In this document: one piece after another, positions 11,178 to 45,176 of the stretch | How positions within the stretch are numbered: position 1 is the stretch's first letter | How the letters are laid out: each line of letters starts with the position of its first letter | IMG/VR virus record: IMGVR_UViG_3300020042_010196 | Span: 1-46,985 of that record | DNA length: 46,985 bases | From: a virus | Lineage: Duplodnaviria > Caudoviricetes | Strand: one strand, 5' to 3' | Program-made: the position numbers and the translations under genes | Notes under the pieces: generated by a model | Told to the model about the DNA's origin: nothing | The model's database searches: none | The model's input: the letters and a program-made list of their open reading frames with translations, nothing else

Positions 11178-11179
11178 TT

Positions 11180-12930: not shown

Positions 12931-12943
12931 TTTTCGTATATTA
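12914..12943 (+). promoter_or_regulatory. TTGC-N19-TATATTA promoter inside glycan island
   Basis: TTGC 12914, TATATTA 12937; ATG at 12949. Confidence 0.6.
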
Positions 12944-12948
12944 GTAGT

Positions 12949-14443: not shown

Positions 14444-14444
14444 C

Positions 14445-16656: not shown

Positions 16657-16681
16657 TAACTACACATACAGGTCGGTCAAT

Positions 16682-20537: not shown

Positions 20538-20560
20538 TAATAAATAGAAATTAAATAAAT

Positions 20561-21190: not shown

Positions 21191-22002
21191 TGAGAACGCA
21201 AAATTTCACAATTTGTGGTAAGTTGGGAGATTTCACACATATGATGTTTGGAGTGAAGTCTATATGCGAAAGGGATAGTGTAAAAGCGAACCTATACCTA
21301 TATCATGTAGATGGTGGTTTCGAGCTAGGAACAGACACAGCATACAGGGAATTATACCAAATAGTGATGGATCAGCCCTTTGTGAATTCTTTTCAGATGT
21401 TAACAGACTACAAAGTAGTACCTAACTCAAACGTAATAAGTGGTCCAATTGAGGTTTATAACCAGAAATTAGTAGAGGAAGGGTATATACATATGGAAGA
21501 TTTTATGAGATCCCCACTACTATACCAAACATGCTGGTCTGAGATATTTAGTAGATTGTTTAATTTTGAGATAAAAGCACCCTATAGGTGGTTGACTTTC
21601 GATAAAATTGATCCATATTTTTCTGACAAGGTGGTCATAAACAGAAGGTATAGTACTTCTAGAATTAACTCTCAATTTCCTTATGAGGATATTATCAATG
21701 CATATAAAGGAAATCTAGTTTTTATAGGAACAGAGAAGAAAGATTATGATATATTTCCATTCAAAGACAGTTGTGACTTCTACCAAATTACAGACGTAGA
21801 TAACTGGTTTACGGTAATTAACTCAGCAGCACTGTACGTGGGTAATTTATCTGGACCATCTTCAATTGCATCAGCACTTGACAAGCCTCGTATAATAGAA
21901 CTACCCCACACAGGAGATGCATATCACTGGATAGGAGAAGAAAAGTATTCAGGTAATATAGGGTGGTATGTTACTCCTGGATTGTATTATATAAATTTTT
22001 AA
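21190..22002 (+). CDS. GT9/heptosyltransferase-like glycosyltransferase
   Basis: GKLGDF near N-terminus; INSAALYVGNLSGPSSIASALDKP. Confidence 0.7.
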   Translation: MRTQNFTICGKLGDFTHMMFGVKSICERDSVKANLYLYHVDGGFELGTDTAYRELYQIVMDQPFVNSFQMLTDYKVVPNSNVISGPIEVYNQKLVEEGYIHMEDFMRSPLLYQTCWSEIFSRLFNFEIKAPYRWLTFDKIDPYFSDKVVINRRYSTSRINSQFPYEDIINAYKGNLVFIGTEKKDYDIFPFKDSCDFYQITDVDNWFTVINSAALYVGNLSGPSSIASALDKPRIIELPHTGDAYHWIGEEKYSGNIGWYVTPGLYYINF

Positions 22003-22024
22003 AACAAGGTATTATTAAAATTTT

Positions 22025-22834
22025 ATGAAGAACTTACTAATAGGAGCTATAAGTGGAAACTACTCCATTGATGATATTAAAAACTGGGTAGTGTCTGCAA
22101 AGAAGGTACTAACAGATAAAGATCAGATATATATACTGGCATATAACTACGAAAGCGGTGACCCTGTTATAGAGTACTTGATCGGTAATAACATAGAGGT
22201 ACTAATGCCAGACATTGATATGTGGGGGCATTCTATTGAGAAGTTTGAAACAAATACTGGATTGATGAATAGTCAGAACAGTTACAAACTAATACACAAT
22301 GTAAGGTTTTTACATATATGGTGGCTATTGAGTAGTATTGAATATAACCAAATACTTATCACAGATGTAAAAGATGTTATAATAAACAAGAGACCTTTCA
22401 AAGATGAAGATATGGAAGACTGCATTGTAGCATCGAGTGAGGTAATCAAGTACGGAGAACATCAGTGGAACAAAGAACACATCTTACAAACTTTTGGATT
22501 AGCAGGAGTACAGTTGTTAGAGGAAGAAGTAAATAATGTAGGAGTGCTATTTGGTAAAGGTTCCGTAGTAAAAGAATTGTGCTTAGACATATATCTCAAT
22601 GCAATTAATAAAACTAAAGTAGCAGACCAGACAGCTTTCAATTATTTAATTAGAAATAGCTACAAAGACAAAACAATATTCACAGGTTTAGCAGATAAGT
22701 GGGCAGTACACCTTCATGTTGTTAACGAAGGGTTAGTACCTTTTGATCTACACCAGCTACAACATTACACAATTATTCACCAATACGATAGATTAGGAAA
22801 TGAAATATTCGATTATTATACCATACCGCAATAG
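22025..22834 (+). CDS. GT-A fold glycosyltransferase-like protein
   Basis: ITDVKDV, NNVGVLFG, DQTAFNYL, IIHQYDR. Confidence 0.7.
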   Translation: MKNLLIGAISGNYSIDDIKNWVVSAKKVLTDKDQIYILAYNYESGDPVIEYLIGNNIEVLMPDIDMWGHSIEKFETNTGLMNSQNSYKLIHNVRFLHIWWLLSSIEYNQILITDVKDVIINKRPFKDEDMEDCIVASSEVIKYGEHQWNKEHILQTFGLAGVQLLEEEVNNVGVLFGKGSVVKELCLDIYLNAINKTKVADQTAFNYLIRNSYKDKTIFTGLADKWAVHLHVVNEGLVPFDLHQLQHYTIIHQYDRLGNEIFDYYTIPQ

Positions 22835-23531
22835 AGAAGAGCATCTACAGATAATGCTTCCAAGATTGCAGGAATTCTTTAAAGACGAGTCCTATGAAAT
22901 CATAGTTTCAGAACAAAACGACACCGACAACTTTAGAATAGCTTGTGTTGAAAACATAGGATTTCAGTATGCAAAAGGAGATATAATAGTACTACAACAA
23001 GTAGACTACTATCCAACAGAGGATGCAATTTACGACGTAGTAGATTGTCCAATCCTCCCAGCTAGGAAAGGAATCTTTTTGGGTAAGGATAACCAATCTC
23101 CTAGAGAATTTCTAGACATACCAGGAGGATACAGAAAGTGGTCAGAAGAAATAGACCCAGCATTCTATGGAGGAGTTATTTCAATGAAGAGAGAACATTT
23201 TGAAGCTATTAATGGACTAAATCCACTATACAAAGGATGGGGCAATGAGGATGAAGATTTAAGAGAAAGATTTGTTTGGGCAGGTATTCCTGTTAAGAGA
23301 AATGAAGTAGGAACTTTTCTATGCCTCTACCACGAAGACAACGGTGATATGAGCAAGAAAGAAGCAGATCACCAGAAGGACTTCTTTGAGGGAAAGCAGT
23401 ACTATATGACACAAGCATATAATGACAGAAACATAGGATACAAAAATCTAACAGCTGATGTTGAGGAACTTCTTACAGGTGATGAGAATATTAGATGGAT
23501 TAAAAGTACAAATTATAAAATAAGTAGATAA
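22800..23531 (+). CDS. Glycosyltransferase family 7 (beta-1,4-galactosyltransferase-like)
   Basis: IIIPYRNREEHL, FYGGV, INGLNPLYKGWGNEDEDL. Confidence 0.88.
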   Translation: MKYSIIIPYRNREEHLQIMLPRLQEFFKDESYEIIVSEQNDTDNFRIACVENIGFQYAKGDIIVLQQVDYYPTEDAIYDVVDCPILPARKGIFLGKDNQSPREFLDIPGGYRKWSEEIDPAFYGGVISMKREHFEAINGLNPLYKGWGNEDEDLRERFVWAGIPVKRNEVGTFLCLYHEDNGDMSKKEADHQKDFFEGKQYYMTQAYNDRNIGYKNLTADVEELLTGDENIRWIKSTNYKISR

Positions 23532-24179
23532 ATGAAAAATCAAGAAATTATAGAGAAGGCAACAAGCCTTGGATTTGGTTATGACCACCATCAACATGAT
23601 TTGTTAATGAGCACAGCTAGGGATATTAAAGGGGTGCCTGGTATTGTATGTGAGATTGGATTACGCGAAGGAGGTGGTATGGCAGGTATGATGCTTGTGT
23701 GTATTGACAATGAAGACACTAACAGACTGTTTCTAGCCATAGATCCTTACGGTAACATCACACACAAGCTATCAGAACATGATCATAGGAAGTTAGACTA
23801 CAACAACGATATGAAATGCAGAGCATTGAAATCTTTTGGATCCTTCTGTTTAGACTATAAGATTAACTTTGTCCACATGTGTTTGGATGATTTAGAATTT
23901 TTTAAGAGATTCGAAGACGGAGTACCTACATACTCAGAGGATAAGTATATAGAAGAAAACTACGCGTTAGTACATCTAGATGGACCACATGCTGTAAAAG
24001 AGTTAATTGACGAGATTAACTTCTTCAGAAGCAGAGTTAGTGTTGGTGGATACATTGTGTTAGACGATGTCCAGGGGCACTATGACCTGACTCCTGCCGA
24101 GCAATCTCTACTGCAGAATGGACAGTATAGTCTAGTTAAAAACGATGGTAAAAAAGCTTCCTACAAAAGAGTAATTTAA
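23532..24179 (+). CDS. SAM-dependent O-methyltransferase (Methyltransf_24/TylF-like)
   Basis: CEIGLREGG, AIDPY, LVHLDGPH, VGGYIVLDD. Confidence 0.8.
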   Translation: MKNQEIIEKATSLGFGYDHHQHDLLMSTARDIKGVPGIVCEIGLREGGGMAGMMLVCIDNEDTNRLFLAIDPYGNITHKLSEHDHRKLDYNNDMKCRALKSFGSFCLDYKINFVHMCLDDLEFFKRFEDGVPTYSEDKYIEENYALVHLDGPHAVKELIDEINFFRSRVSVGGYIVLDDVQGHYDLTPAEQSLLQNGQYSLVKNDGKKASYKRVI

Positions 24180-24189
24180 AAAAAACAAC

Positions 24190-24573
24190 ATGCAAATAGA
24201 GACATCAGTAGGTGAGATAGTGGATAAATTATCAATACTACATATAAAAAAAGAAAAGATATCTGACGAAGCAAAGCTTGGCAATATAACAAAAGAGTAT
24301 GAGTACTTACACCAGGTAGTATTTACACAGCTAGCAATACAGGAGGAGGACTATGATAAGTTACTTGCAGTTAACAAGGTTTTGTGGAATATAGAAGATG
24401 ATATTCGAGTAAAAGAGTATCAAAAGGAATTTGATGAGCAGTTTATTGCTTTGGCTAGAGACATATACACTACCAACGACAAGAGGGCTGAAATTAAAAA
24501 GAGTATAAATAATAAATACAACTCAACCTTTGTTGAGGAAAAAAGTTATGTAGATTATGGAAATACACACTAA
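24190..24573 (+). CDS. DUF6165-like protein
   Basis: SVGEIVDKLSIL, VNKVLWNIEDDIR, NDKRAEIKKSIN, VEEKSY. Confidence 0.8.
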   Translation: MQIETSVGEIVDKLSILHIKKEKISDEAKLGNITKEYEYLHQVVFTQLAIQEEDYDKLLAVNKVLWNIEDDIRVKEYQKEFDEQFIALARDIYTTNDKRAEIKKSINNKYNSTFVEEKSYVDYGNTH

Positions 24574-25456
24574 CAGTAAATGCTTGGTTATAACTTGCGG
24601 ATTCTTTGGAGACATAGTTTTTGCTAGCTCCTTAGCAGACAAACTCCAATACAGTGAAGTGGAATATTTGATAGGATTTCCTCAAATGCAAAAACTTTTA
24701 CAGAATAATCCTAACATAAGTAAAGTACACGTTTCACAAATACCAGGACCATTTCCAGTACACTATGGTATAGACCTTACCCAATATGAACGTGTTATTA
24801 CGCTAAAGCCACTAAACTACAACACAACACCATGTGAAGAGTACCAGCAGTTCGCAGGAATAGGTAACGCTACTTCAGACTATAAAGTGTACACTGAGTC
24901 TGAATTTGATAGGGTAGCCTACGATTTGTGCAGGGATTTTAGAGAAACTACCAATAAACCTGTCGTGGCAGTTTTAAGTAATTGGGAGGAAAAAACCTAT
25001 AAGTTTACAGAAGAACAGTATCGAGAAGGTATTGATGTTCCCAATCTGGGATATGGTGGAGCTCATAGAGATATTAACTACATTATAGAAAAATTAGAAC
25101 CATACATAACAATGATCCCAGTAGGAGTGGGAGAGCTTAATCAGCAACAAACATTAAACATCCCAGATGAGGATACGAAGTCCCTACTTTTTGAAGCTTC
25201 TTTAATGAAGTATTGTGATGCTTTTATAGGAACAGACGGAGGCTTAGCAACTATAGCAGCAGGAGTGGGCACAAAAACCATCATCACAGGTGATTTCAAT
25301 TTACAACTATACGGATGGAATGGGGTACTAAAAAAACTTGAAAATCCAAAATTAGGTCCTTACGAGTATTTTGGGAATCCTCATGAAGTAGTTAATCCAT
25401 ATGCAACAGATCAGGAAGTTGCTGAACATATAATAAAAAGTCTTACTACAACATGA
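24557..25456 (+). CDS. GT9/heptosyltransferase-like glycosyltransferase
   Basis: GFFGDIV, LLQNNPNI, CDAFIGTDGGLATIAAGVGTKT. Confidence 0.78.
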   Translation: MEIHTNSKCLVITCGFFGDIVFASSLADKLQYSEVEYLIGFPQMQKLLQNNPNISKVHVSQIPGPFPVHYGIDLTQYERVITLKPLNYNTTPCEEYQQFAGIGNATSDYKVYTESEFDRVAYDLCRDFRETTNKPVVAVLSNWEEKTYKFTEEQYREGIDVPNLGYGGAHRDINYIIEKLEPYITMIPVGVGELNQQQTLNIPDEDTKSLLFEASLMKYCDAFIGTDGGLATIAAGVGTKTIITGDFNLQLYGWNGVLKKLENPKLGPYEYFGNPHEVVNPYATDQEVAEHIIKSLTTT

Positions 25457-26151
25457 GAATATTATACAGAATATCAGACGCAGGTTACAGCAAAGTAAAA
25501 CCTACCTACATAGACAATGAAATGTGTTTAAAGAACTTTTGCAATGTATTTTTTGATCACATCCATGACATTCGAATCATAGCAGACAATTGTAGTGAAG
25601 ATACTTTAAACATGATTGCAAAGTATATCGATCCAGTAAACACAGAGAAAGTATCTGTAGGACATGGAGCAGGAACTTTTAACCTAGCATTGGACAAAGC
25701 ACTAACTTACGCAGATGATGAGATTGTATACTTTGTAGAAAATGATTACTTGCACAAACAACAATCTCCAAAAGTTATTAAAGAGGGTTTAAAGTTGGGA
25801 GCTTCTTTTGTATCTTTGTATGATCATCCTGATAAGTACTTGGATCCTTCTAGAGGAGGAAATCCTTTTTGTGAAGGAGGAGCAGAAGATACTAGAGTGT
25901 ACTTAACAGAATCTACTCATTGGAAGATGACAAACTCAACTACAATGACATTTGCATCCACAGTAGAAACTTTAAAAAGAGTTGAACCTATCTTAAGAAA
26001 ATGGACTAACCAAGGACACTATCCAGATGATTTTAAAATGTTTCTAGAACTAAGAGAGCAGTTAGAACTCTTAGTTACGCCACTACCAGGATATGCAACA
26101 CATGGAGAGTCAGCTTGGCTATCACCACTAACAGATTGGAGTAACATATGA
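25453..26151 (+). CDS. GT-A fold (GT2-like) glycosyltransferase
   Basis: IIADNCS, VYFVENDYLH, SLYDHPDKY, STTMTFA, PGYATH. Confidence 0.78.
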   Translation: MRILYRISDAGYSKVKPTYIDNEMCLKNFCNVFFDHIHDIRIIADNCSEDTLNMIAKYIDPVNTEKVSVGHGAGTFNLALDKALTYADDEIVYFVENDYLHKQQSPKVIKEGLKLGASFVSLYDHPDKYLDPSRGGNPFCEGGAEDTRVYLTESTHWKMTNSTTMTFASTVETLKRVEPILRKWTNQGHYPDDFKMFLELREQLELLVTPLPGYATHGESAWLSPLTDWSNI

Positions 26152-26918
26152 TATCAGTAATTATACCTACATACAAATCACCTCAAGCATTAGATCTTTG
26201 CTTAAGATCAGCTGTCGAAGGTCAAGTAAATACAAATCAAATTATTGTAGTGGTAGATGGTTTCTATGATCTAAACAAAGAAGTGTTGGAGAAGTGGAAA
26301 GATTCTATCGAAGTATTAGATCTGCAGGAGAATGTAGGACTGTGCAGAGGAACAAATCTAGGAGTATACAATGCTACATCAAATAAAATACTAATTGTAA
26401 ATGACGACAATGTATTCCCATCAGGATGGGATGAGACATTAGAACTAGAGTGGCAGGAAGGATTGGTAATAACACCAAACCAAATTGAACCATTCCCCAG
26501 TATGTTCCCACAAATGCACATTAAAGATTTAGGAAGAGATCCCAATACATTTGATTTAGAAAACTATTGGCGATATGATAAAACAAACGCATCTACTGAT
26601 AAAAGGGATGAGTGTGGATCGACACTACCTTTATTCATGTCTAAGTTAGATTATTTGAGAGTTGGAGGTTGGGATGAAAATTATGATCTTGGTGTAGTAG
26701 CTGATTGGGACTTCCTACTCAAATGCCAACTATCAGGATTAAAGATGGTACGAACATATAACCTACACTTCTACCACTTTGTATCACTATCGACAAATGA
26801 CACAGAAGAAAAGAGAGTTAATAGACAGCAAGCAGAAGTTGCTGGGCATGAGTATGCAAGGTATAAATGGGGAGACTACATTAAGCACAATCCACATAAT
26901 AACTTAAAGTACATTTAA
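26148..26918 (+). CDS. Glycosyltransferase family 2
   Basis: ISVIIPTY, VVVDG, IVNDDN, VGGWDE, ADWDF, FYHF. Confidence 0.9.
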   Translation: MISVIIPTYKSPQALDLCLRSAVEGQVNTNQIIVVVDGFYDLNKEVLEKWKDSIEVLDLQENVGLCRGTNLGVYNATSNKILIVNDDNVFPSGWDETLELEWQEGLVITPNQIEPFPSMFPQMHIKDLGRDPNTFDLENYWRYDKTNASTDKRDECGSTLPLFMSKLDYLRVGGWDENYDLGVVADWDFLLKCQLSGLKMVRTYNLHFYHFVSLSTNDTEEKRVNRQQAEVAGHEYARYKWGDYIKHNPHNNLKYI

Positions 26919-36276: not shown

Positions 36277-36480
36277 ATGCAAGTGTGGGGAAAAAATAAG
36301 TTAAAAGATCCAAACTCAAATCATATTATACGAAAGGTAATCAAAAGGACAGAGCAATTGCTTACTAGGGAACAAACACCTAAAGTAATAAAAGAACTAG
36401 CATACCTAAAAGATAGGCTGAGGATAGGACAAATGCTCCTGGAGAGGTGGAAAGAAAACCATCTAGAAAACCGTTTGTAA
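36277..36480 (+). CDS. Basic hypothetical protein
   Basis: 67 aa; ends inside first 12-bp array. Confidence 0.55.
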   Translation: MQVWGKNKLKDPNSNHIIRKVIKRTEQLLTREQTPKVIKELAYLKDRLRIGQMLLERWKENHLENRL

Positions 36481-36552
36481 AACCGTTTAGATAACCGTTT
36501 GTAAAACCGATTGGCTAACCGATCACAAAAGCGATTACCTAACCAATAAACA
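36457..36552 (+). repeat. 12-bp-period tandem array I (8 units, AACCG core)
   Basis: Units start at 36457, 36469, 36481, 36493, 36505, 36517, 36529, 36541, e.g. AACCGTTTGTAA, AACCGTTTAGAT, AACCGATTGGCT. Confidence 0.9.
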
Positions 36553-36808: not shown

Positions 36809-36988
36809 AACTACCTAGAGAACCGATCCGTAAACCGATTAGAAAACCGTCTAGTAAATCGTTTGGTAAACCGTCCTGGAAACCGATTAGGGAACCGTTT
36901 GGCTAACCGCCTAGAGAACCGATTGGAAAACTGATCCGTAAACCGATTAAAAAACCGTTTGGTGAACCGATAGGGAAACTGTTTTGGC
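36809..36988 (+). repeat. 12-bp-period tandem array II (15 units, AACCG core)
   Basis: Exact 12-nt phase from 36809 to 36977, e.g. AACCGATCCGTA, AACCGATTAGAA, AACCGTCTAGTA, AACCGTTTGGCT. Confidence 0.92.
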
Positions 36989-37112
36989 TACCCAAACAAA
37001 AAAACAATCCCTCCCTAGGAATTCCCTCCTGGAAAAAACTTTAAAAAAAATTGATCAAACTGTTGCCTAGAAGGAACAAAAGGAGTATCTTTAGGGTCTA
37101 AAGATCAAACAT

Positions 37113-37328
37113 ATGGAAAAGGTTTCGGAATTAAAGACAGTGGTAGGGAAAGATTGCTCATGCAACTACTCACCTACCCACAGATCAAAGTTAATCCAGG
37201 TAGGAAAAGAATTGTGTATCCTGGAAGTAACTCCAGCCCAGCATGGGGATTTGTCTAGGGGGGAAGACTCAGTAGGGGTTCAGTTCACCCTGCCTATTTA
37301 CATTACACACAACCAATATTTTTTCTAG
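37113..37328 (+). CDS. Hypothetical early protein
   Basis: Promoter at 37063. Confidence 0.65.
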   Translation: MEKVSELKTVVGKDCSCNYSPTHRSKLIQVGKELCILEVTPAQHGDLSRGEDSVGVQFTLPIYITHNQYFF

Positions 37329-37331
37329 GCG

Positions 37332-37457
37332 ATGAAAGTAATCCAGGTAACACTACAGGAAAGGTGGGCCGCCACAAGAGGGGTGGCTCACAAGTCAAAA
37401 AAATCCTACACCAGGAAACCTAAGCACAAGGGTAAGGGTTCAGGCTCAAATTGTTAG
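37332..37457 (+). CDS. Small basic protein with ArfA-like KKSYxRKxKH motif, not in ORF track
   Basis: 41 aa MKVIQVTLQERWAATRGVAHKSKKSYTRKPKHKGKGSGSNC. Confidence 0.6.
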   Translation: MKVIQVTLQERWAATRGVAHKSKKSYTRKPKHKGKGSGSNC

Positions 37458-37638
37458 CCTCCCTTACCTAAAGCATCACTTTAGATAGATTTTACTTAAA
37501 GCAACACTTTAGATAACACGACGTAAAGTTATCCTCCCTTACCTAAAGCTTTACTTTAGATAACGAGTATAAGGCGCTCTCCGGTCTACTCTTCCGGTTT
37601 AGAGAAACCAGGCCCCTTGATAAGCGCTTTGCTTTTTC
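37458..37638 (-). ncRNA. Candidate ~180-nt non-coding RNA with three repeated hairpins
   Basis: No credible ORF; directly downstream of a perfect minus-strand promoter; GC-rich 5' stems and three (C)TAAAG-N5-CTTTA(G) hairpins. Confidence 0.55.
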
Positions 37639-37644
37639 AATACC

Positions 37645-37675
37645 TAAAGATACGCTAAAAGATCTTTGTAGGCAA
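37645..37675 (-). promoter_or_regulatory. Minus-strand copy of the early promoter (divergent from 37729 copy)
   Basis: Reverse complement AAAAGTTGC-N19-TATCTTTAGGTATTG. Confidence 0.85.
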
Positions 37676-37783
37676 CTTTTTTTTCATTTATTTTGTTATT
37701 TATTTTCATTCTAAATAAGCCCTACTTGTTGTCTCGTATATCCTATAGGGGTATCTTTACCTCATTAATCAAAACAAACAGCT

Positions 37784-38017
37784 ATGAAAGCATCAATCTC
37801 AGAATTAGTAGTAGGTGAAAAATATCTTATAGGTCCTAATCAAGGAATAAACTCAGAAAATGTTATAGGAGTTTTTCAAGGAGATGTATTGGGGGGAGTA
37901 GCTGTTCAGTTTAAAGTAAAGCATCATCCAGGAATTGCTCTATATAAAGGAATGATTGTTTTCAGTAAGGATAGTAAATTATTATTCGAAAAAGTTGCAC
38001 ACAAAGAATTAAAGTAG
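37784..38017 (+). CDS. Hypothetical early protein, paralog of 38514 (LVVGEKY)
   Basis: Own promoter; shared N-terminal motif. Confidence 0.78.
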   Translation: MKASISELVVGEKYLIGPNQGINSENVIGVFQGDVLGGVAVQFKVKHHPGIALYKGMIVFSKDSKLLFEKVAHKELK

Positions 38018-38047
38018 TATCTTTATCAAAATTAAAACAAACAAGTT

Positions 38048-38437
38048 ATGATAAACAAGATTAAAGATTTAGCGTTAGTAGATTTTATAGGAGACAGAAA
38101 AGGTACATTCCAAGCTATCACCAAAGTACCAGCAGGGTATATGGTAGCCTACAACTTAGGAACAGGGGTACCTTCCCTTAATGGTTGGAAGAAGGGAGCT
38201 CTTCAAACAATTCAATTTCAGCCTGAGGGATTAAATGCTTGGCTTACAGTGTTCGCTAAGAAGGGTACTAAAGTAATTCTTATGGATGAGCAGATAGCAG
38301 CTACAGTGGAGGTAGGTACTGTTAATCAATTGTTCTACAACACTAACTTAATGGACCATGCACAATACAAAGCAGTAGGTGCTAAGACATGGGCTGATAA
38401 AGTATTTGTGGAGAATAAAATTAATGAATTAGTTTAA
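38048..38437 (+). CDS. Hypothetical early protein
   Basis: Own promoter and CAAGTTATG leader. Confidence 0.8.
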   Translation: MINKIKDLALVDFIGDRKGTFQAITKVPAGYMVAYNLGTGVPSLNGWKKGALQTIQFQPEGLNAWLTVFAKKGTKVILMDEQIAATVEVGTVNQLFYNTNLMDHAQYKAVGAKTWADKVFVENKINELV

Positions 38438-38513
38438 AAATAATTGGAGAAAGAGTTGTTTATTCAGTTCTTTCTCCTTATCTTTACCTCATTAATAATA
38501 AAAACAACAAGTT

Positions 38514-38738
38514 ATGTTAGTAAACAGAAAAGATTTAGTAGTAGGTGAGAAGTATTTCATGGATGGTTCTCGTAGAGTTGTAGGTACATTCACTAAGAGA
38601 ATTGACGATTCAATCTACTTTGATTGTGGAGAAGATTGTGGAAGTTACATACCATCAGCTAAACCTGAGTGTGAGGGATTGATTGGGTTTTGGGGAGATT
38701 TCGGTACGGGGTTTGAACCTGTAGAGGAAATTAATTAA
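38514..38738 (+). CDS. Hypothetical early protein, paralog of 37784
   Basis: DLVVGEKY; own promoter. Confidence 0.8.
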   Translation: MLVNRKDLVVGEKYFMDGSRRVVGTFTKRIDDSIYFDCGEDCGSYIPSAKPECEGLIGFWGDFGTGFEPVEEIN

Positions 38739-38810
38739 AAAAATATGGAGAAAGAGTTGCTAGGTTAATTCTTTCTCCGTATCTTTAGGTATAATTAAAA
38801 ACAAACAGTT

Positions 38811-39089
38811 ATGAAACAAACAGTCACTTCAGAATTGAAGAAAAGTATTACGAAAGTAACAGGGCACATTGTTCAGGAAATTACTTATTCGGATCCTAGA
38901 AAAAATGGATTAGCAGTAGGAGTTAAACTTTGTTATGCAGAATACTCTCAACCTATCATCAATCAAATAGTTGAAGATATGGAGAGTAAAGGGTTTAAAC
39001 TTGCTTATGTTCGATTGAATAAAGTCAAGTACGATTATGGTGCATATGGTACAATTCCTGGTACAAGATTCTGCTTCTATAAGAAATAA
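38811..39089 (+). CDS. Hypothetical early protein
   Basis: Own promoter and leader. Confidence 0.8.
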   Translation: MKQTVTSELKKSITKVTGHIVQEITYSDPRKNGLAVGVKLCYAEYSQPIINQIVEDMESKGFKLAYVRLNKVKYDYGAYGTIPGTRFCFYKK

Positions 39090-39169
39090 TTAAAAAAAAT
39101 ATGGAGAAAGTGTTGCATACTAAATGCTTTCTCCGTATCTTTAGGTATTAATAATAAAAACAACAAGTT

Positions 39170-39904
39170 ATGAAAACATTAGAACAAATTGAATTGCAAG
39201 AAGTGGAGTTAACTAACAGGAGAGCTGACATCCACTCAAAACAACAATCAGCAATCAGAAGAGAAGTTCTCCCTTTCTTCCAACACCTTACTCCAGAAGT
39301 CGAGATAGAATTTAACACAGGTTCAATCTACTTCAAGATGGTTCATCCTGATAGAGGGTACAGCAAAGAGTTGTTTAGTGTTTACTTGAAGCAAAGTTGG
39401 AGTGATGATACTCACTACAGTGGTCTTGATTTGTCTTATTACACTACTTCTGTATCAGGAGAGGATAAGTGGGAATTGAAAAGACTTCAGATATTGGGTT
39501 CTGTTGCTGGGATTATTCACGAACATGGTGACATTATTCTAGGTAGAATAAACAGTGTTTGTAATGGACTTCGGGTTGTGTATGATGGATTGTATGAGGA
39601 GATGGGTGAATTGCATAAAGAGAAAAGTGAAGTACTAAATGCTGCCCATGCTGAACGTCGAGCTAAGGTACAGGCTGAGCTCTTTGAGGGAGGAGTTTCA
39701 TTTCCAGGGTGGGCACATATCAAGTTGAAGTACAACTATACTGCAAGAGTGACTTGGTTAGCAATCACTAAGGTATCAAAGACTAAGTGTGTAGCTGTGT
39801 TCAAGTACCCTGACCATGATAAAGTTTATACAGAAGAGAGAGTTGATTTAGAGAGTTTATTAACTCAAGTAATCGCTCAGCAAAATTTCGCACAGTCTTC
39901 ATAA
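39170..39904 (+). CDS. Hypothetical early protein (244 aa)
   Basis: Own promoter and leader; followed by antisense element and terminator. Confidence 0.82.
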   Translation: MKTLEQIELQEVELTNRRADIHSKQQSAIRREVLPFFQHLTPEVEIEFNTGSIYFKMVHPDRGYSKELFSVYLKQSWSDDTHYSGLDLSYYTTSVSGEDKWELKRLQILGSVAGIIHEHGDIILGRINSVCNGLRVVYDGLYEEMGELHKEKSEVLNAAHAERRAKVQAELFEGGVSFPGWAHIKLKYNYTARVTWLAITKVSKTKCVAVFKYPDHDKVYTEERVDLESLLTQVIAQQNFAQSS

Positions 39905-39925
39905 CGCTGTTGTTTTAATTATTGA
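39898..39925 (+). promoter_or_regulatory. 3'-UTR element complementary to the shared early leader and ATG
   Basis: Reverse complement TCAATAATTAAAACAACAGCGTTATGAA vs leader TTAATAATAAAAACAACAAGTTATGAA. Confidence 0.6.
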
Positions 39926-39931
39926 ATGGAT

Positions 39932-39959
39932 AGGGGGCTTCGGCCTCCTTTCCTATTTT
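39932..39959 (+). terminator. Rho-independent terminator
   Basis: AGGGGGC-TTCG-GCCTCCT then T-rich tail. Confidence 0.82.
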
Positions 39960-39978
39960 CTGCCCTATTTATATATGT

Positions 39979-40265
39979 AACAGGAAGTGAGACTCTTGTT
40001 GGAAAATAGCTTTTTATTTAGTACATTATACTAATATTTATAAAAGAATATCCTACTCTGAGTCTCACCAAGGGGGTAGGTATCTCAAAAGAAGGCCTAT
40101 CTCTTAACTGAGGTAGGCTTTTCTCGTTTACTTCAATTCCTTTTACGCACTTAATGATAACCCCTATGCGTAGAAGACTTTCAGTACCCACTCTTGATTG
40201 GACCAGGTACATTTTATTAGTTATTAATTACGCTGAAGTTTTGTTATCTTTGTTTCTTCAGTATG
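39979..40265 (+). ncRNA. Candidate structured non-coding RNA (kissing-loop 5' domain plus further hairpins)
   Basis: After TATTTATA 39966; no credible ORF; six predicted stems; GTGAGACTC 39987 complementary to GAGTCTCAC 40060. Confidence 0.55.
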
Positions 40266-40373
40266 GGGGGGAAAAAATCAATGTATGTTTATTAAAAAAT
40301 AATTGTTAGAATAGTTGCTGGGTATGTATTAATTAAGTATCTTTAGGTATTAATAATTAAAACACTAAACACC

Positions 40374-40556
40374 ATGTACAAAATTAACATTCCAGCAGGT
40401 TACATTAAAAAATTTACTTCAGTATTAACTAACAAATTATCTAATACTTATAACATTTTAAGTACAGGTATATTAGTTAAATCTGAAGATTTAGAAAAAG
40501 TTCTAGATATTTCAGAAAAACTTCAGTTAAAAATAACTTATAAAAAAGTTGCTTAG
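40374..40556 (+). CDS. Hypothetical early protein
   Basis: Own promoter at 40315. Confidence 0.7.
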   Translation: MYKINIPAGYIKKFTSVLTNKLSNTYNILSTGILVKSEDLEKVLDISEKLQLKITYKKVA

Positions 40557-40602
40557 GTAACTTTTTTTTATTATCTTTAGGTAAATAAAAAAACAACAAG
40601 TT

Positions 40603-40863
40603 ATGACACAGTATCAAAAATTAGTTCAAGGGTTAGAGCAAGCCAAAGTGCCTTGCAATGTTAAATTATTCAACACAGGAGATATTGCTGTTGAATGTGG
40701 TTTCAACTATCCAGACGAAGTATTCTCACAAGTATGGGATGTAGCTGAGGCTGTAGGATTAAATACTCATAGAGGCTTCAGCATATGTGCTGATGTTCAC
40801 GGAGGAGTTGTTGAAATTCAGCAACGAGTGTGTGGAGGTCCTAAAAGATATTCATACGTTTAA
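40603..40863 (+). CDS. Hypothetical early protein
   Basis: Own promoter and leader. Confidence 0.8.
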   Translation: MTQYQKLVQGLEQAKVPCNVKLFNTGDIAVECGFNYPDEVFSQVWDVAEAVGLNTHRGFSICADVHGGVVEIQQRVCGGPKRYSYV

Positions 40864-40946
40864 TTAAAAAAAAGTTGGAGAAAGAGTTGCTAGTTCGATT
40901 CTTTCTCCGTATCTTTAGGTATTAATAAATAAAAAAACAACAAGTT

Positions 40947-41048
40947 ATGAAAAAAGATCCAGTTCAGTTAGCAGCTAATGTTGCAAAAGTAGGTTTAGTG
41001 TTAGTGTGGGGAGTGTTCATGTATTGTTTAATTAAATCATGTATTTAA
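40947..41048 (+). CDS. Single-TM micro-protein, not in ORF track
   Basis: 33 aa MKKDPVQLAANVAKVGLVLVWGVFMYCLIKSCI after consensus promoter and leader. Confidence 0.72.
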   Translation: MKKDPVQLAANVAKVGLVLVWGVFMYCLIKSCI

Positions 41049-41049
41049 G

Positions 41050-41229
41050 ATGACAGAAGTACAAACAGCATTGGTAGAGTTGAATGAGGAGGGATTTCAC
41101 ATTGAACAAGTTGAAGCAGATAAGTTCATGGTTTTCGATAATGGTAAGTTTGGATTTGCAAATGACGAAGATCCATTTATTGTTGATGGGGATGGAGTGT
41201 TAGAGATTTATGAAATGTACTTAAACTAA
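41050..41229 (+). CDS. Small acidic protein, not in ORF track
   Basis: 59 aa MTEVQTALVELNEEGF... Confidence 0.7.
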   Translation: MTEVQTALVELNEEGFHIEQVEADKFMVFDNGKFGFANDEDPFIVDGDGVLEIYEMYLN

Positions 41230-41235
41230 TTAAAG

Positions 41236-41343
41236 ATGACAGAAGTAGAAAAGTTTTACGAGTGGATGTTGAAAATAGGATCCATCCACTTAGCTGACAA
41301 TCAGCAAATGTCTAAAGCCTTTGAACAATTTAACAACAAATAA
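41236..41343 (+). CDS. Micro-protein, not in ORF track
   Basis: 35 aa MTEVEKFYEWMLKIG... Confidence 0.6.
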   Translation: MTEVEKFYEWMLKIGSIHLADNQQMSKAFEQFNNK

Positions 41344-41345
41344 TC

Positions 41346-41516
41346 ATGAGTAGAGCAAACGCAATTGCCTTAAAAGAAGAGTTGATGGATTTAGGTATCT
41401 CAGCTGAGAGTATTTTAAATTATTTATTGAGTGATCACATGTCTGGAATGGAGGCCTACTACGCAATGGAAGATGCCATGGAGGAGTTCTTTCCCAGTGA
41501 CCAGGACGAAGACTAA
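41346..41516 (+). CDS. Small acidic protein, not in ORF track
   Basis: 56 aa MSRANAIALKEELMDLG...SDQDED. Confidence 0.7.
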   Translation: MSRANAIALKEELMDLGISAESILNYLLSDHMSGMEAYYAMEDAMEEFFPSDQDED

Positions 41517-41532
41517 CTAAAAACAAACACAC

Positions 41533-41709
41533 ATGCAAGACACACAATATAGTATTCACCAGTACAAAGATCCAAACTCCAATAATGATTGTGAGTTGTT
41601 TGAAGTGATAGTTAATGGTGTTCTGGTCTACGAGAGAGACTACGGATCCCAAACCTCAGACATCAAAGAGTACATTGAAGACTACGAAACATTCCTATCA
41701 AATAATTGA
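41533..41709 (+). CDS. Small acidic protein, not in ORF track
   Basis: 58 aa MQDTQYSIHQYKDP...; A/C-rich leader. Confidence 0.7.
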   Translation: MQDTQYSIHQYKDPNSNNDCELFEVIVNGVLVYERDYGSQTSDIKEYIEDYETFLSNN

Positions 41710-41772
41710 TAAAAAAGTTGTCTACAAAGTGGTAAAGGAGTATCTTTAGGTATCAATTTAAAACAACAAGTT

Positions 41773-42021
41773 ATGAAAAATTTAAACGAAGTATATCTTA
41801 GAGATGTAAAAGAAAATGGTACTTACTTAGTTCACCAAGTTATGTACGAAAGATTTGGTGATAGTGAAAGTTACTTACTACAAGGTAGTGGTAGTGAAGT
41901 TTTGAAGTTTATAAAAGAACATGTAAACTTTTACGAGGATGAGGATATTAATGATTTGTTTGATTGGTATAATGAATGTAATGGTGATGGTGGTGATTTA
42001 ATTAGTATATTTGAATTGTAA
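41773..42021 (+). CDS. Small acidic early protein
   Basis: Own promoter; NGDGGD motif. Confidence 0.8.
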   Translation: MKNLNEVYLRDVKENGTYLVHQVMYERFGDSESYLLQGSGSEVLKFIKEHVNFYEDEDINDLFDWYNECNGDGGDLISIFEL

Positions 42022-42109
42022 AATAATTTAAAAAAAGTTAGGAGATTAGTTGCTAGTCTCCTTTCTTTTTATTATCTTTAGGTATTAATAATTAAAACAA
42101 CAACAAGTT

Positions 42110-42517
42110 ATGATGGACATTAATTACTTTTTAGACGATGCACAAAATTCTAGACAAGGTCAATTCGAATTAGACTTTGCAGATGTTATTACTTGCTTCG
42201 ATTTATTCGAGACTACATTAGTCACTGAGTGTGGTAGAACATTGGTCATTAATTGGACTGATGCAGGTTTCTTTAAGTCTTACCATATAATGTACGAGAC
42301 AGAGCAAATGGAAAGTGTAGTCAACAGAGACATGGTATTGAAGGTTATTGACTTACTTGAGACAATAGATGTTGATGGAGAGACAATGCAATACATTCTA
42401 CAAAGAATAGGAATGGAAGAACAAATGTTACGTCAGTTAGTAATGTCAAGTCCTTACACTGACACTTCAGACTTATTAGAGGAGAAAGTTAGATTGAGTG
42501 ATGCAGGAATTTTTTAG
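42110..42517 (+). CDS. Acidic early protein
   Basis: Own promoter and leader. Confidence 0.8.
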   Translation: MMDINYFLDDAQNSRQGQFELDFADVITCFDLFETTLVTECGRTLVINWTDAGFFKSYHIMYETEQMESVVNRDMVLKVIDLLETIDVDGETMQYILQRIGMEEQMLRQLVMSSPYTDTSDLLEEKVRLSDAGIF

Positions 42518-42582
42518 TAAAAAAGTTGCCTCGTAAGTATTAAAAGAGTATCTTTAAGTATTAATAATAAAAACAACAAGTT

Positions 42583-42804
42583 ATGACAAAAGACGTTCAA
42601 GAGATTTTCGCAATCGAGTTCAAAAGATTACAAGGTGGATTAGTAGCAACTCCAGACTCAAGAGAGGACTTGGAATCATTTGCAAGATCTAATCAAGGTT
42701 CAATGGACATTGTGTTAATGCAAATGGCCATTCAGTTCGGATACAAGATTGCTCTTGAGAATGTTCAAGAGAGTTTAGAGTTGTTAGATATAGTAGCAGT
42801 ATAA
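42583..42804 (+). CDS. Hypothetical early protein
   Basis: Own promoter and leader. Confidence 0.8.
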   Translation: MTKDVQEIFAIEFKRLQGGLVATPDSREDLESFARSNQGSMDIVLMQMAIQFGYKIALENVQESLELLDIVAV

Positions 42805-43034
42805 TGGGTGAAAGAGATTTAAGAGGAACGTGGAAAGGAAGAGGAAGGGACGTACCTACGTCCTCCTCTCCTATAATAGGAATGGTGTACAGAGGGAAAA
42901 GTATTGATGGGGTTAGTAACGTAATTGGTATGTTACAAATCTTTGACAATGAGCAAGCCCAATTAGTTGACAGAGATGGAGTGATGCATATAGTAACTAT
43001 CAAATCCCTAAGTACTGTTTATGATGATGATTAA
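42804..43034 (+). CDS. Hypothetical protein (true start may be ATG 42882)
   Basis: 5' part holds a strong hairpin and atypical codons. Confidence 0.5.
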   Translation: MGERDLRGTWKGRGRDVPTSSSPIIGMVYRGKSIDGVSNVIGMLQIFDNEQAQLVDRDGVMHIVTIKSLSTVYDDD

Positions 43035-43140
43035 AGTAGTATTACTCTCAGCAATGTTGCTTCACCCTCCAGTGAAGAAGCCAAGGTGCTTGAAGTACCT
43101 GGATAAGAAAATAGAAAGAAGACTAACACAAATAGCTTAA
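43021..43140 (+). CDS. Small basic protein, not in ORF track
   Basis: 39 aa MMMIKVVLLSAMLLHPPVKKPRC...; fills gap. Confidence 0.5.
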   Translation: MMMIKVVLLSAMLLHPPVKKPRCLKYLDKKIERRLTQIA

Positions 43141-43144
43141 CAAG

Positions 43145-43336
43145 ATGAATCAAGATAGATTAGCAAGATTACTCAACACAGCCCTGGAGCTACTTACTGT
43201 ACTAGAACATTATGCAGATGAAAAGACTCAGAAGGAAATAGATGCTTTGTTTGATGAGGTAAACTTTGAAGATGATAATATCTTAGCAGACCTAGAGGCT
43301 CAGGAGTGGGAAATGTTTGGTGAAAATAAAGTATAA
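43145..43336 (+). CDS. Small acidic protein
   Basis: 63 aa, D/E rich. Confidence 0.72.
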   Translation: MNQDRLARLLNTALELLTVLEHYADEKTQKEIDALFDEVNFEDDNILADLEAQEWEMFGENKV

Positions 43337-43396
43337 AAAAGTTGCCTACGAAGTATTAATTAAGTATCTTTAGGTATCAATTTAAAACAACAGCAC

Positions 43397-43594
43397 ATGA
43401 CATTAAAACAAATTATTGCCCAGGCCAAACAAGTTGATGCAGTAGACTTCAACAAATTCTTAGACGCTAATAACATCCGCAACTCTTGGCTTGATGTTAC
43501 TTTAACAGACTTCAACGATGGACCTTACAACATTACTCTAGATGATTTCGACCAGTATAATATTTCCTTCTACGATGGAATTTATGAAGAATAA
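43397..43594 (+). CDS. Small acidic early protein
   Basis: Own promoter at 43342. Confidence 0.78.
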   Translation: MTLKQIIAQAKQVDAVDFNKFLDANNIRNSWLDVTLTDFNDGPYNITLDDFDQYNISFYDGIYEE

Positions 43595-43652
43595 AGTTGC
43601 TTCGTATTAATGAAAAGAGTATCTTTAGGTATCAATAATTAAAACAAACAAC

Positions 43653-43925
43653 ATGAAAAATTTATTAAGTACTGCAAAGCAAATTTTAATTGAAGGAGCA
43701 CAACTTCTTTACAATGATGGAAGAACAGGTTTAAAAGCAGACCTTGTTGCTTACCAAGATCACTATAAGAATTTAGGGGCTATGATTTTTCAAATTGATT
43801 CTTACAAATCTTTAGGTGACATCTTAAATGATATTGAGAATGACAATTTAGCTGAGCTAGGTTACTGTAGTGGAGATGATTATGTTGTTGCAGAATTTTT
43901 ACAAGCAATTGAAGAAAGTAGATAA
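43653..43925 (+). CDS. Small acidic early protein
   Basis: Own promoter at 43597. Confidence 0.8.
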   Translation: MKNLLSTAKQILIEGAQLLYNDGRTGLKADLVAYQDHYKNLGAMIFQIDSYKSLGDILNDIENDNLAELGYCSGDDYVVAEFLQAIEESR

Positions 43926-43990
43926 AAAAGTTGCTTCGTAATATAATCTTCAGTATCTTTAGGTATCATTAATTAAAACAACAACAAGTT

Positions 43991-44317
43991 ATGAGAAAAA
44001 TCACACAGCAAGCAATTCAAAGTTTCATCAACAAACAATCTTTCTTCAAAGATAATACAATGGTTGAAGTTACTGAAACAAGTACTACATTAAAGTTGTT
44101 CAACAATCCTATTGCTGGAATAGATTACAAAGGGATGTGGATTACAGATGCAGGTTGGCCCACTAGGACTACGTTCGATAGATTGAATGGAATTGATGGA
44201 GTGTATATCTTCAAGAAGAAAGGACAAGTATATCTTAATGGATTTCCTTGGGATGGTGAGAAAGAGTATGTGATGAGGACTACTTTCTTTTACGAAGATG
44301 TACTAAAAGTTTATTAA
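43991..44317 (+). CDS. Conserved phage early protein (GWxTxTTxxRLN motif)
   Basis: MRKIT...NT...NPIA...ITDAGWPTRTTFDRLNG. Confidence 0.82.
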   Translation: MRKITQQAIQSFINKQSFFKDNTMVEVTETSTTLKLFNNPIAGIDYKGMWITDAGWPTRTTFDRLNGIDGVYIFKKKGQVYLNGFPWDGEKEYVMRTTFFYEDVLKVY

Positions 44318-44385
44318 AAAAAAGTTGCACACAAACAATTAAAAGAGTATCTTTAAGTATTAATAATAAAAACAAACAACAAGTT

Positions 44386-44814
44386 ATGAAAAAAGAAAAT
44401 GTATTAGAAGTAGTTCAAAATTCAGTTAGTTCTATCTTTACTAAAGATGATGTACTAAAACTTATTACTAGTATTGAACAAGAACAAACAAATCAAGTTT
44501 ACGATTTGATTAAAAGATTACAAGACTTACAAGAAAAAATTAGTTACGACTTTCAAAACTTAAGTAGTGATGAGGTAGTTGATTTAGATAGTGCTGAGTT
44601 TAACATTGGTTATAATAACAGACTTGAAGTTGAAGACATTAGTCTTAACATTGATAACTTGACTGATATAGTTGAAGATAGTTTCTCAAGTTTGATTAAT
44701 GAGTTGAGAGAATTAGAATTGAATAAAGAAGAAGAAGAAGTAGTAGGTTCAGAGTTTGAAGATGGACAAGTTACTAGTTCAGAATACACTCCAGTAGAAG
44801 AGAACGAGTTGTAA
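44386..44814 (+). CDS. Highly acidic early protein
   Basis: SIFTKDDV...DSAEFNI; E/D-rich C-terminus. Confidence 0.82.
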   Translation: MKKENVLEVVQNSVSSIFTKDDVLKLITSIEQEQTNQVYDLIKRLQDLQEKISYDFQNLSSDEVVDLDSAEFNIGYNNRLEVEDISLNIDNLTDIVEDSFSSLINELRELELNKEEEEVVGSEFEDGQVTSSEYTPVEENEL

Positions 44815-44903
44815 TAATTATTGATGAAAAGTTAGCGAGGCTGTTGTCTCGCTTTCTTTTTTTATTTATCTTTAGGTATTAATAATTAAAACAACAACAA
44901 GTT

Positions 44904-45176
44904 ATGACAAAAGAACAATTTTTAAATGGTACAACTTTTAGAGTAGGCTTCTTATCTTATAAAGGAGCAGAGACTTATTCTTACAATCAAAAAGACAATT
45001 ATATATCTAAGCAGATCAGATCATCTATAGATGAAAGAGTAGTACTTAGGGATTATGTTTGTAATGTTTTAAAGGTAGGGAGAGTAGGTTTCACAGGTTT
45101 TACCTTTATATTAAAAAAGAGAGTAGTAGTTAAATATCGATTTGAAGATCTAGTAGAATTTAAAGAGGAGGCTTAG
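44904..45176 (+). CDS. Hypothetical early protein
   Basis: Own promoter and leader. Confidence 0.8.
   Translation: MTKEQFLNGTTFRVGFLSYKGAETYSYNQKDNYISKQIRSSIDERVVLRDYVCNVLKVGRVGFTGFTFILKKRVVVKYRFEDLVEFKEEA

What the first reader, a model, noticed from the sequence alone, without database searches (positions are those of the whole stretch)
39898..39959. 3'-UTR element antisense to the common early leader and start codon: a possible master off-switch
Seen: TTCATAACGCTGTTGTTTTAATTATTGA spans the stop of 39170-39904 and runs towards a UUCG terminator. Its reverse complement matches the gene's own leader and ATG at 24 of 28 positions. It also has 16-nt perfect matches to the leaders of 42110, 43653 and 44904 and a 13-nt match to that of 43397. 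No minus-strand promoter lies behind it. Known: 3'-UTR-derived sRNAs and 5'-3' fold-back in type I toxin mRNAs block initiation. Inference: a cis lock on a toxic gene, or one trans RNA silencing many early cassettes, which would explain why the leaders are kept so alike.
Basis: partly seen in the sequence, partly recalled or inferred. Interest (0 to 1): 0.85.

Follow-up and report, generated by a model that had tools for sequence, protein, structure and literature searches.

The report
Phage RNA mirroring its early leaders
A family of large phages of aquatic Flavobacterium-type bacteria keeps one folded RNA segment whose sequence mirrors the shared start region of about 15-20 of its early genes and changes in step with it, so it likely acts as a single RNA switch that turns those genes down together; this is untested, but a cultured phage and host exist to test it.

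Summary
Observation confirmed and extended. The window is a phage close to Flavobacterium phage immuto_2-6A (DNA polymerase 80% identical). At 39892-39959 lies a hairpin whose loop reads the AUG context, an unpaired tail complementary to the 5' end of the shared early leader, and a terminator. The element follows the same gene in 60 of 76 loci (window included, some redundant; proteins mostly 29-42% identical). Its hairpin shows compensatory changes, and its tail tracks the leader type of each phage group. Most genomes have one copy against 4-15 sense leaders. It is not tied to one gene: it also sits behind two other genes, often directly after a tRNA-like sequence, and in one complete genome that lacks the protein. 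The own leader is not the preferred partner (best in 4 of 28). The 33-aa antisense ORF is not conserved. Best reading: a 3'-derived trans-acting RNA that represses early translation. A cis 5'-3' lock is predicted to be feasible and is the main rival. There is no RNA evidence. The scan noted similar anti-leader RNAs on other phage DNA (unchecked notes); my nine paper searches found none in print.

The parts
39112..39143 (+). Host-sigma (Bacteroidota -33/-7 type) early promoter, GTTG ... TATCTTTA, predicted to drive the parent transcript; overlapped by a hairpin
   Evidence: -7 consensus TANNTTTG from PMC6847099
39147..39169 (+). Own A-rich leader, one member of the shared early-leader family; departs from the element at two of the first 14 positions (one a G.U pair, one a mismatch)
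39170..39904 (+). 244-aa early protein of an unnamed phage family (homolog immuto26A_136); confident model with a long helix and two beta regions, no known fold or family; usual carrier of the element
39892..39910 (+). Hairpin with a 9-nt loop CUUCAUAAC (39897-39905), complementary to GUUAUGAA of the leaders; contains the stop codon; stem kept by compensatory change in relatives
39909..39925 (+). Unpaired U-rich tail complementary to the first ~15 nt of the early leaders; most conserved part of the element
39932..39959 (+). Intrinsic-terminator-like UUCG hairpin, predicted 3' end of the RNA
   Evidence: a terminator-like hairpin follows in the relatives
42084..42112 (+). Predicted target leader of 42110 (strongest, -25.6 kcal/mol)
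43965..43993 (+). Predicted target leader of 43991 (-21.8 kcal/mol)
44878..44906 (+). Predicted target leader of 44904 (-21.8 kcal/mol)
42560..42585 (+). Predicted target leader of 42583 (-20.6 kcal/mol)
41752..41775 (+). Predicted target leader of 41773 (-18.8 kcal/mol)
43376..43399 (+). Predicted target leader of 43397 (-17.8 kcal/mol)
43631..43655 (+). Predicted target leader of 43653 (-15.2 kcal/mol)
37752..45176 (+). Cluster of promoter-leader-small-gene early cassettes (16 leaders counted at 36900-45000, 14 predicted to bind at -10 kcal/mol or better)

Best explanation
The element is a conserved hairpin, anti-leader tail and terminator at the 3' end of an early transcript, and it likely works in trans as a stable RNA of about 60-70 nt that pairs with the shared leader of most early mRNAs and would block their translation, ending the early phase. 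Shown: structure, conservation, complementarity, co-variation with leader type, one copy in most genomes, and independence from any one carrier gene. Inferred: (1) it is made from the carrier's early promoter, since no promoter of its own is conserved; (2) it is freed by mRNA decay, or by tRNA-type processing where a tRNA-like sequence precedes it, and is protected by the two hairpins; (3) the tail zips onto the first ~14 nt of the leaders and, in the window-type form, the loop reads GUUAUGA; (4) this hides the upstream adenines and AUG that Flavobacterium ribosomes need; (5) because it also pairs with its own leader, it gives delayed negative feedback, a timer.
For: Directly behind the gene in 60 of 76 loci with a complete 3' end, and in a more distant homolog group. 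Hairpin: 95% of cells paired with 5 of 7 pairs changed on both sides, 99% and 6 of 9 in the second type; RNAalifold found the first hairpin unprompted. Ten-genome cross matrix: elements bind leaders of their own group better, in two blocks. 0 of 100 shuffled elements reach the observed median in each of 5 genomes. Binding at -10 kcal/mol or better: 15 of 17 early leaders against 0 of 135 other gene starts in G001, 14 of 16 against 6 of 40 in the window, 10 of 18 against 5 of 146 in G010. One antisense copy against 15, 9 and 4 sense copies in three near-complete genomes, and 1 against 15 in the 18.7-kb early region of cultured immuto_2-6A. For trans: own leader best in only 4 of 28; in L009, L014 and L022 the carrier's leader has drifted while the element matches the others; it lies behind a 62-aa gene, a 123-aa gene and an HNH-like gene; a T-arm motif lies just upstream in 7 of 24 loci, two of those tRNA-like sequences passing the Rfam tRNA threshold; G010 (100% complete) has the element but no homolog of the protein. 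In F. johnsoniae, adenines at -3, -6, -12, -13 promote initiation and structure reduces it (PMC6847099); FopS-10 blocks translation by pairing next to the start codon (PMC11697453).
Against: No transcript, processing site or repression has been observed. Full-length mRNA folding predicts 5'-3' fold-back in cis (probability 0.75-0.97 in 6 of 7). The own leader ranks somewhat better than average (mean relative rank 0.33 against 0.5). The element followed a paralog of the carrier in L040 and stays with this family in distant phages, which suits a cis role. One promoter must titrate 15-20 strong promoters, so the RNA must be much more stable than its targets or be recycled. Most loci (53 of 66 elements), including immuto_2-6A, have no anti-AUG loop and pair only 14-15 A/U-rich bases (about -12 kcal/mol), which stop short of the start codon. 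In the second phage group the complement runs about 3 nt (in some, more) upstream of the predicted start site. The two-block co-variation is about one deep split, not ten independent events. ARAGORN called none of the tRNA-like sequences in 10 loci.
Confidence: 0.55

Rival explanations
1. Cis lock: the 3' end folds back on the 5' end of the same mRNA once transcription is complete and shuts off (or stabilises) only the carrier unit, as in aapA1 or icaR. The match to other leaders would be a by-product of leader similarity.
For: Predicted fold-back 0.75-0.97 in 6 of 7 full-length mRNAs; a second copy behind a paralog in L040 and two copies behind two units in L087; deep linkage to one protein family; in six loci a different loop (AGUUGUUA) matches UAACAAC of the own leader, though L044 has that loop without the match.
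Against: The own leader is not preferred, and mismatches to it persist where other leaders match better (L009 fold-back only 0.11-0.22). tRNA-like sequences between carrier and element would, if processed, cut the link. Three or more unrelated carriers; G010 lacks the protein. ViennaRNA under-penalises an 800-nt loop (own knowledge).
Confidence: 0.22
2. Trans pairing with a positive or protective role: the tail caps the 5' ends of early mRNAs against 5'-end-dependent decay, or marks them as phage RNA, rather than blocking ribosomes.
For: The invariant part is the tail against the very 5' end, and 53 of 66 elements have no anti-AUG loop.
Against: The form found across the most distant groups also covers the AUG, which should block initiation; even the tail alone reaches about -12, where adenines matter (PMC6847099).
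Confidence: 0.12
3. DNA-level feature or relic: an inverted leader copy kept alike by recombination or gene conversion among cassettes, or a protein-binding or inversion site, with no RNA function.
For: Cassette homogenisation by recombination is known for PeSLs (PMC2839356); in some class-B phages the complement runs into the promoter's last bases.
Against: The complement is split by a non-complementary hairpin arm that co-varies. It is followed by a terminator-like hairpin on the transcribed strand. No locus shows the gene inverted. G, which pairs with both the C and the U leader variants, is kept in 56 of 57 class-A tails.
Confidence: 0.07
4. It is the leader of an expressed 33-aa minus-strand ORF (39801-39902).
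For: The ORF exists in the window and in the 91%-identical relative L027.
Against: In 12 elements with the anti-AUG loop the ORF is 5-36 aa with unrelated sequence; 53 of 66 elements have no ATG there; a minus-strand -7 box lies within 120 nt in only 2 of 66; TATTTATA precedes genes in the sense orientation (14-18 against 1-5 reversed in four genomes), so the motif at 39966 points away from the element.
Confidence: 0.02

Closest known systems
FopS and GibS sRNAs of Bacteroides thetaiotaomicron (PMC11697453: abstract, passages, section 8; PMC7366714: passages)
   Same: Bacteroidota host type, ~65-70 nt, single-stranded seed plus terminator, pairs near start codons of many mRNAs and blocks translation; FopS-14 is 3'-UTR-derived.
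   Different: No Rfam match; one or two copies, not 12-15; has an extra 5' hairpin; targets are the phage's own leader family and co-vary with it; no promoter of its own.
C4 antisense RNA of phages P1/P7 (as described in PMC5320573, passages)
   Same: Phage RNA cut from a longer transcript by a tRNA-processing enzyme, two-part recognition with a loop covering the ribosome-binding site.
   Different: C4 has three stem-loops and serves immunity and lysogeny; no Rfam match here; this RNA is complementary to 15-20 separate early mRNAs.
T4 RegB and RegA (PMC3014915, passages)
   Same: Same proposed job: functional inactivation of many early mRNAs at their initiation regions, own mRNA included (RegB).
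   Different: They are proteins; here the specificity is base pairing.
5'-3' fold-back in aapA1 (PMC5416894, passages) and icaR (PMC3868564, passages)
   Same: A 3' end complementary to the own initiation region; fold-back is predicted here too.
   Different: Those act on one mRNA; aapA1 encodes a 30-aa toxin with an opposite-strand antitoxin. Here the protein is 244 aa, no antitoxin unit is seen, and the element is detachable from its gene.
PeSL cassettes of T4-type phages (PMC2839356, passages)
   Same: Describes the target array: repeated early promoter plus overlapping stem-loop before small unknown genes.
   Different: The words 'antisense' and 'leader' do not occur in that paper's main text; no anti-leader element is described.

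Membership tests
3'-derived trans-acting base-pairing sRNA (general class) | Unpaired seed followed by an intrinsic terminator at the 3' end of an mRNA | tested here: met
3'-derived trans-acting base-pairing sRNA (general class) | Conserved complementarity to initiation regions of other mRNAs | tested here: met
   (in silico)
3'-derived trans-acting base-pairing sRNA (general class) | Accumulates as a separate RNA species | not testable with these tools
   only assembled contigs were available
3'-derived trans-acting base-pairing sRNA (general class) | Regulates targets by pairing (compensatory mutants) | not testable with these tools
   needs experiment
FopS/GibS | Match to the family's sequence and structure model | tested here: not met
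   no such Rfam hit at gathering or at permissive E-values
FopS/GibS | 12-15 paralogs per genome, mostly from own sigma-A promoters | tested here: not met
   one copy, at times two; no conserved own promoter
FopS/GibS | Binds RbpB | not testable with these tools
   needs experiment
P1/P7 C4 antisense RNA | Three-stem-loop C4 fold | tested here: not met
   one hairpin plus terminator; no Rfam hit
P1/P7 C4 antisense RNA | Matured by a tRNA-processing nuclease | tested here: inconclusive
   tRNA-like sequences directly upstream in some relatives, none in the window; cleavage not observed
Type I toxin mRNA fold-back (aapA1, hok) | 3' end pairs with the own 5' UTR in the full-length mRNA | tested here: met
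   predicted only, 6 of 7
Type I toxin mRNA fold-back (aapA1, hok) | Small toxic peptide | tested here: not met
   244-aa two-domain protein; toxicity itself untested
Type I toxin mRNA fold-back (aapA1, hok) | Antitoxin RNA from an opposite-strand promoter | tested here: not met
   no minus-strand early promoter at the locus

The most novel reading that the evidence does not exclude
A lytic phage family runs its early-to-late switch with RNA instead of a RegB-like protein. One 3'-derived RNA, freed by decay or by tRNA-like processing signals, silences a whole regulon of 15-20 early mRNAs that keep a common leader in order to be addressable. In its widespread form it presents a loop with the letters of a Met-tRNA anticodon loop (YUCAUAAC, as in the phages' own tRNA-Met) to read the AUG. 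With look-alikes noted in unrelated phages by this scan, this would be a recurrent, undescribed mode of phage temporal control.
Probability: 0.4. Interest if true: 0.9.

Novelty: new variant of a known kind. Interest (0 to 1): 0.77.

Why it matters
How phages that use the host polymerase turn off dozens of strong early cassettes is only partly known; for T4 the review read here names RegB plus a promoter shut-down that is not fully understood (PMC3014915). An RNA that addresses all early leaders at once would be a new solution and would give a function to the uniform leaders of early cassettes. It is directly testable: the cultured phage immuto_2-6A (host Flavobacterium sp. LMO8) has 15 leaders with an identical 14-nt start and exactly one exact complement. 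It would also provide a short programmable translation switch for Bacteroidota, which lack Shine-Dalgarno pairing.

Tried and rejected
Sequencing runs: 7 runs with small shares, all assembled contigs. Contigs of related strains cover parts of the carrier gene, none covers 39864-39959; this says nothing for or against a small RNA. Protein function: no Pfam or PHROGs family; Foldseek PDB nothing at E<=0.001, the viral library gave one full-length uncharacterised homolog; VIA-align best Z 7.8 on helical hairpins only; ESM Atlas hits 0.79-0.84 to hypothetical clusters; the domains were not folded separately, so a known fold is not excluded. No relative in GTDB genomes. The single-sequence locus search gave one false hit, L001. 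The tree of the carrier protein is a quick, unfinished search with long branches; I use it only to note that loci without an attached element are scattered. Seven of the 16 loci without an attached element showed none elsewhere, but six are contigs of 1-10.5 kb and one is a 26%-complete record. G.U-compatible substitutions in tails (5 of 7) were considered weak evidence because transitions give them by default. An internal promoter for the RNA was looked for and is not conserved (14 of 66 loose -7 matches, none in the window). The genome-wide k-mer scan put the element first among sense-strand sites in the window, G001, G003, G010 and G014, but not in the top 7 of G004, and unmasked leader complements ranked above it in several genomes. 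Host mRNA targets were not tested. Paper searches found no description of this element; the library lacks most subscription journals and I opened no supplements.

Full report
Setting. The window is a 47-kb piece of a virus record. Its DNA polymerase A is 80.5% identical to that of Flavobacterium phage vB_FspM_immuto_2-6A and its two sister isolates; all other phages are below 30%. From about 37 to 45 kb lies an array of small unknown genes, each behind GTTG-N17-TATCTTTA and a nearly identical A-rich leader ending in GTTATG. This resembles the Bacteroidota -33/-7 promoter. With 4-5 nt between the -7 box and the start site (PMC6847099, passages), transcription is predicted to start within about 2 nt of the ATCAAT/ATTAAT that opens the leader.

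Observation. The 24-of-28 match to the own leader needs one gap. The 16-nt matches (42087, 43632, 44881) and the 13-nt match (43382) are real, with further 14- and 13-nt matches at 43970 and 40352. The core occurs 7 times with at most one mismatch, against 0 in 100 shuffles. Folding shows a small hairpin at 39892-39910 with CUUCAUAAC in its loop, an open tail and a UUCG terminator hairpin. No Rfam family matches.

Conservation. The 244-aa protein has 53 relatives. Profile searches fetched 90 loci. Twelve end before the stop and three with broken or chimeric ends were dropped. Of the other 75 plus the window, 60 of 76 carry TTTT(T)AATTAT(TGA/AC) within 45 nt of the stop, between a hairpin and a terminator-like hairpin. 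Some loci are the same contig found twice or close strains. Most proteins are only 29-42% identical to the window's. A pattern scan of IMG/VR returned 20 matches, 17 behind this family and 3 unrelated. A further lineage with distant homologs (E 5e-30, 7e-33) has the window-type element with the stop codon in the loop. The named record of immuto_2-6A has it right after immuto26A_136, as 1 antisense copy against 15 sense copies of the 14-mer in the 18.7 kb fetched. Three near-complete records gave 1 against 15, 9 and 4; two partial records had no exact match to that pattern because their element differs. Two loci have two copies (L040, L087).

Structure. In 12 window-type elements the loop UCAUAAC and the tail UUUUAAUUAU are invariant while the stem changes: 95.2% of cells pair, 5 of 7 pairs change on both sides, and slid controls reach at most 64.7%. 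RNAalifold returns the same hairpin. In 18 elements of the commoner type the loop is not anti-AUG but the stem is kept: 98.8% paired, 6 of 9 pairs with double changes. Relatedness inflates these counts, but there are at least five quite different stems. The loop has the same letters as the anticodon loop of these phages' tRNA-Met genes. This may simply follow from reading UAUGA, and the three G-C pairs of initiator tRNA (recalled) are absent.

Co-variation with the leaders. Phages whose leaders begin ATCAATAATTAAAAC have tails ending TTATTGA(T); those with GTATAATTAAAAA have TTATAC, and G010, with several GCATAATT leaders, has TTATGC. A 10 x 10 co-folding matrix splits into these two blocks. 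This is roughly one deep event plus a few small ones, so the permutation P there overstates it. No shuffled element of 100 reached the observed median in any of 5 genomes. Predicted binding at -10 kcal/mol or better: 14 of 16 early leaders against 6 of 40 other starts in the window, 15 of 17 against 0 of 135 in G001, 10 of 18 against 5 of 146 in G010. Host-type promoters outside the cluster have other leaders and bind less well. In the first group the complement ends at the predicted start and never includes the -7 box. In the second it runs about 3 nt further upstream, more in L019 and L021, which a pure 5'-end model does not explain.

Cis or trans. Fold-back within the full mRNA is predicted in 6 of 7 cases (0.75-0.97; L009 0.11-0.22), and the element has a deep link to this protein family, including a paralog. 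But the own leader was the best partner in only 4 of 28 distinct cases (three more could not be parsed), with a mean relative rank of 0.33. In the window, L009, L014 and L022 the carrier's leader deviates where other leaders match better. Nine of the 16 loci without an attached element have it elsewhere: behind a 62-aa gene (L014, L022, L023, L066, L084, L069) or a homolog of window gene 44386 (L003, L008, L031). In L003, L008, L022, L031, L066 and L138 it begins within about 15 nt of a tRNA-like 3' end, and L003 and L008 use different tRNA-like sequences in the same slot. Rfam scores two of these adjacent sequences above its tRNA threshold; ARAGORN calls none. If processed, they would release the element from any mRNA. 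G010, 173 kb and rated 100% complete, carries the element after two tRNA-like sequences and has no homolog of the protein by two searches. I therefore favour trans action, with the own mRNA as one of the targets.

Mechanism. Shown: anatomy, conservation, complementarity and mobility. Inferred: synthesis from the carrier's early promoter (no conserved internal promoter), release and stabilisation as a 60-70 nt RNA, pairing of the tail with leader positions 1-14 and of the loop with GUUAUGA, and loss of initiation. The last step rests on the role of upstream adenines and low structure in F. johnsoniae (PMC6847099, passages) and on FopS-10 blocking translation next to a start codon (PMC11697453, passages). 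The result would be a delayed shut-off of the early array, the job RegB does in T4 (PMC3014915, passages). Weak points are the 1:15-20 promoter ratio, the short A/U duplex in the common form, and the lack of any RNA data.

Rivals. The minus-strand 33-aa ORF is not conserved (5-36 aa in 12 elements; no ATG in 53 of 66) and has no promoter. A relic inversion does not explain a co-varying hairpin inside the complement or a fixed place before a terminator. A protective role on 5' ends remains open. The protein's function is unknown: the model is confident (pLDDT 90.8) but has no clear structural match.

Comparison and novelty. It works like a FopS-type or 3'-UTR-derived sRNA and, in biogenesis, perhaps like P1 C4 (PMC5320573, passages), but fails membership of FopS, C4 and type I toxin fold-back (aapA1, PMC5416894; icaR, PMC3868564; passages). 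The target array resembles PeSL cassettes (PMC2839356, passages). Nine paper searches found no report of such an element, within a library that lacks most subscription journals; no supplements were read. This scan's earlier, unchecked notes describe similar anti-leader RNAs in other phages, one of them a lake phage of Bacteroidota; look-ups by place and by protein found no look-alike of this locus. They gave me the FopS, PeSL, C4 and icaR leads and are not counted as support.

Verdict. A real, conserved RNA element under selection to pair with the phage's own early leaders; most likely a trans-acting repressor (0.55), with a cis lock the main rival (0.22). New variant of a known kind, interest 0.77, testable in a cultured phage-host pair.

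Noticed in passing
window 39966-40123 (+); also L004, L005, L027, L040, L048, L052: A gene-free stretch starting at a TATTTATA motif right after the terminator is conserved in 7 loci. It ends in a terminator with compensatory changes, and by eye has a long-range stem whose arms differ but stay complementary. A likely separate non-coding RNA; only a weak Rfam hit (BTnc231, E 0.06, far below threshold). A conserved CCTATGCGTAGAAGAC block follows.
   Followed up: partly
window 37430-37665 (-); G001 67521, G003 154843: A divergent early-type promoter drives a conserved gene-free region with a shared GGGGCCTGG...CGGAAGAGTAGAC block and repeated dyads that resemble the promoter's -7 box back to back. 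Candidate non-coding RNA, polymerase decoy or DNA site at the edge of the early array.
   Followed up: partly
window 38447-38478, 38748-38779, 39103-39135, 40878-40909, 42040-42066, 44835-44860: Hairpins enclose the -33 box of the next early promoter, as in PeSL cassettes.
   Followed up: no
L022 6550-6695, L066 4254-4350, L003 10659-10731, L008 10590-10648, L031, L138 2197-2265 and 2383-2482: Degenerate tRNA-like sequences with tRNA ends but odd or long middles inside early operons; several share the GTCAGG/CCTGAC acceptor stem. Possible processing signals.
   Followed up: partly
window 36470-36545 and 36820-36985: Gene-free stretches with many short AACCG repeats, next to the early array; possible origin or packaging region.
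   Followed up: no
window 9735-26918: Large cluster of glycosyltransferases, methyltransferases, GDP-mannose dehydratase and nucleotidyltransferase; also DNA polymerase A (83-2035), GroEL-like chaperonin (2689-4320) and a GH19 enzyme (6078-6689).
   Followed up: no
L026 6220-6310, L050 1467-1560: Two anti-leader tails in tandem, each followed by a hairpin.
   Followed up: no
L087 6433-6972: An HNH-like gene sits between the 62-aa gene and the element, which stays at the end of the unit (HNH label from a recalled motif).
   Followed up: no
G001, G003, G004, G010: TATTTATA precedes 14-18 genes per genome in the sense orientation; a likely late-promoter motif of this phage group.
   Followed up: partly
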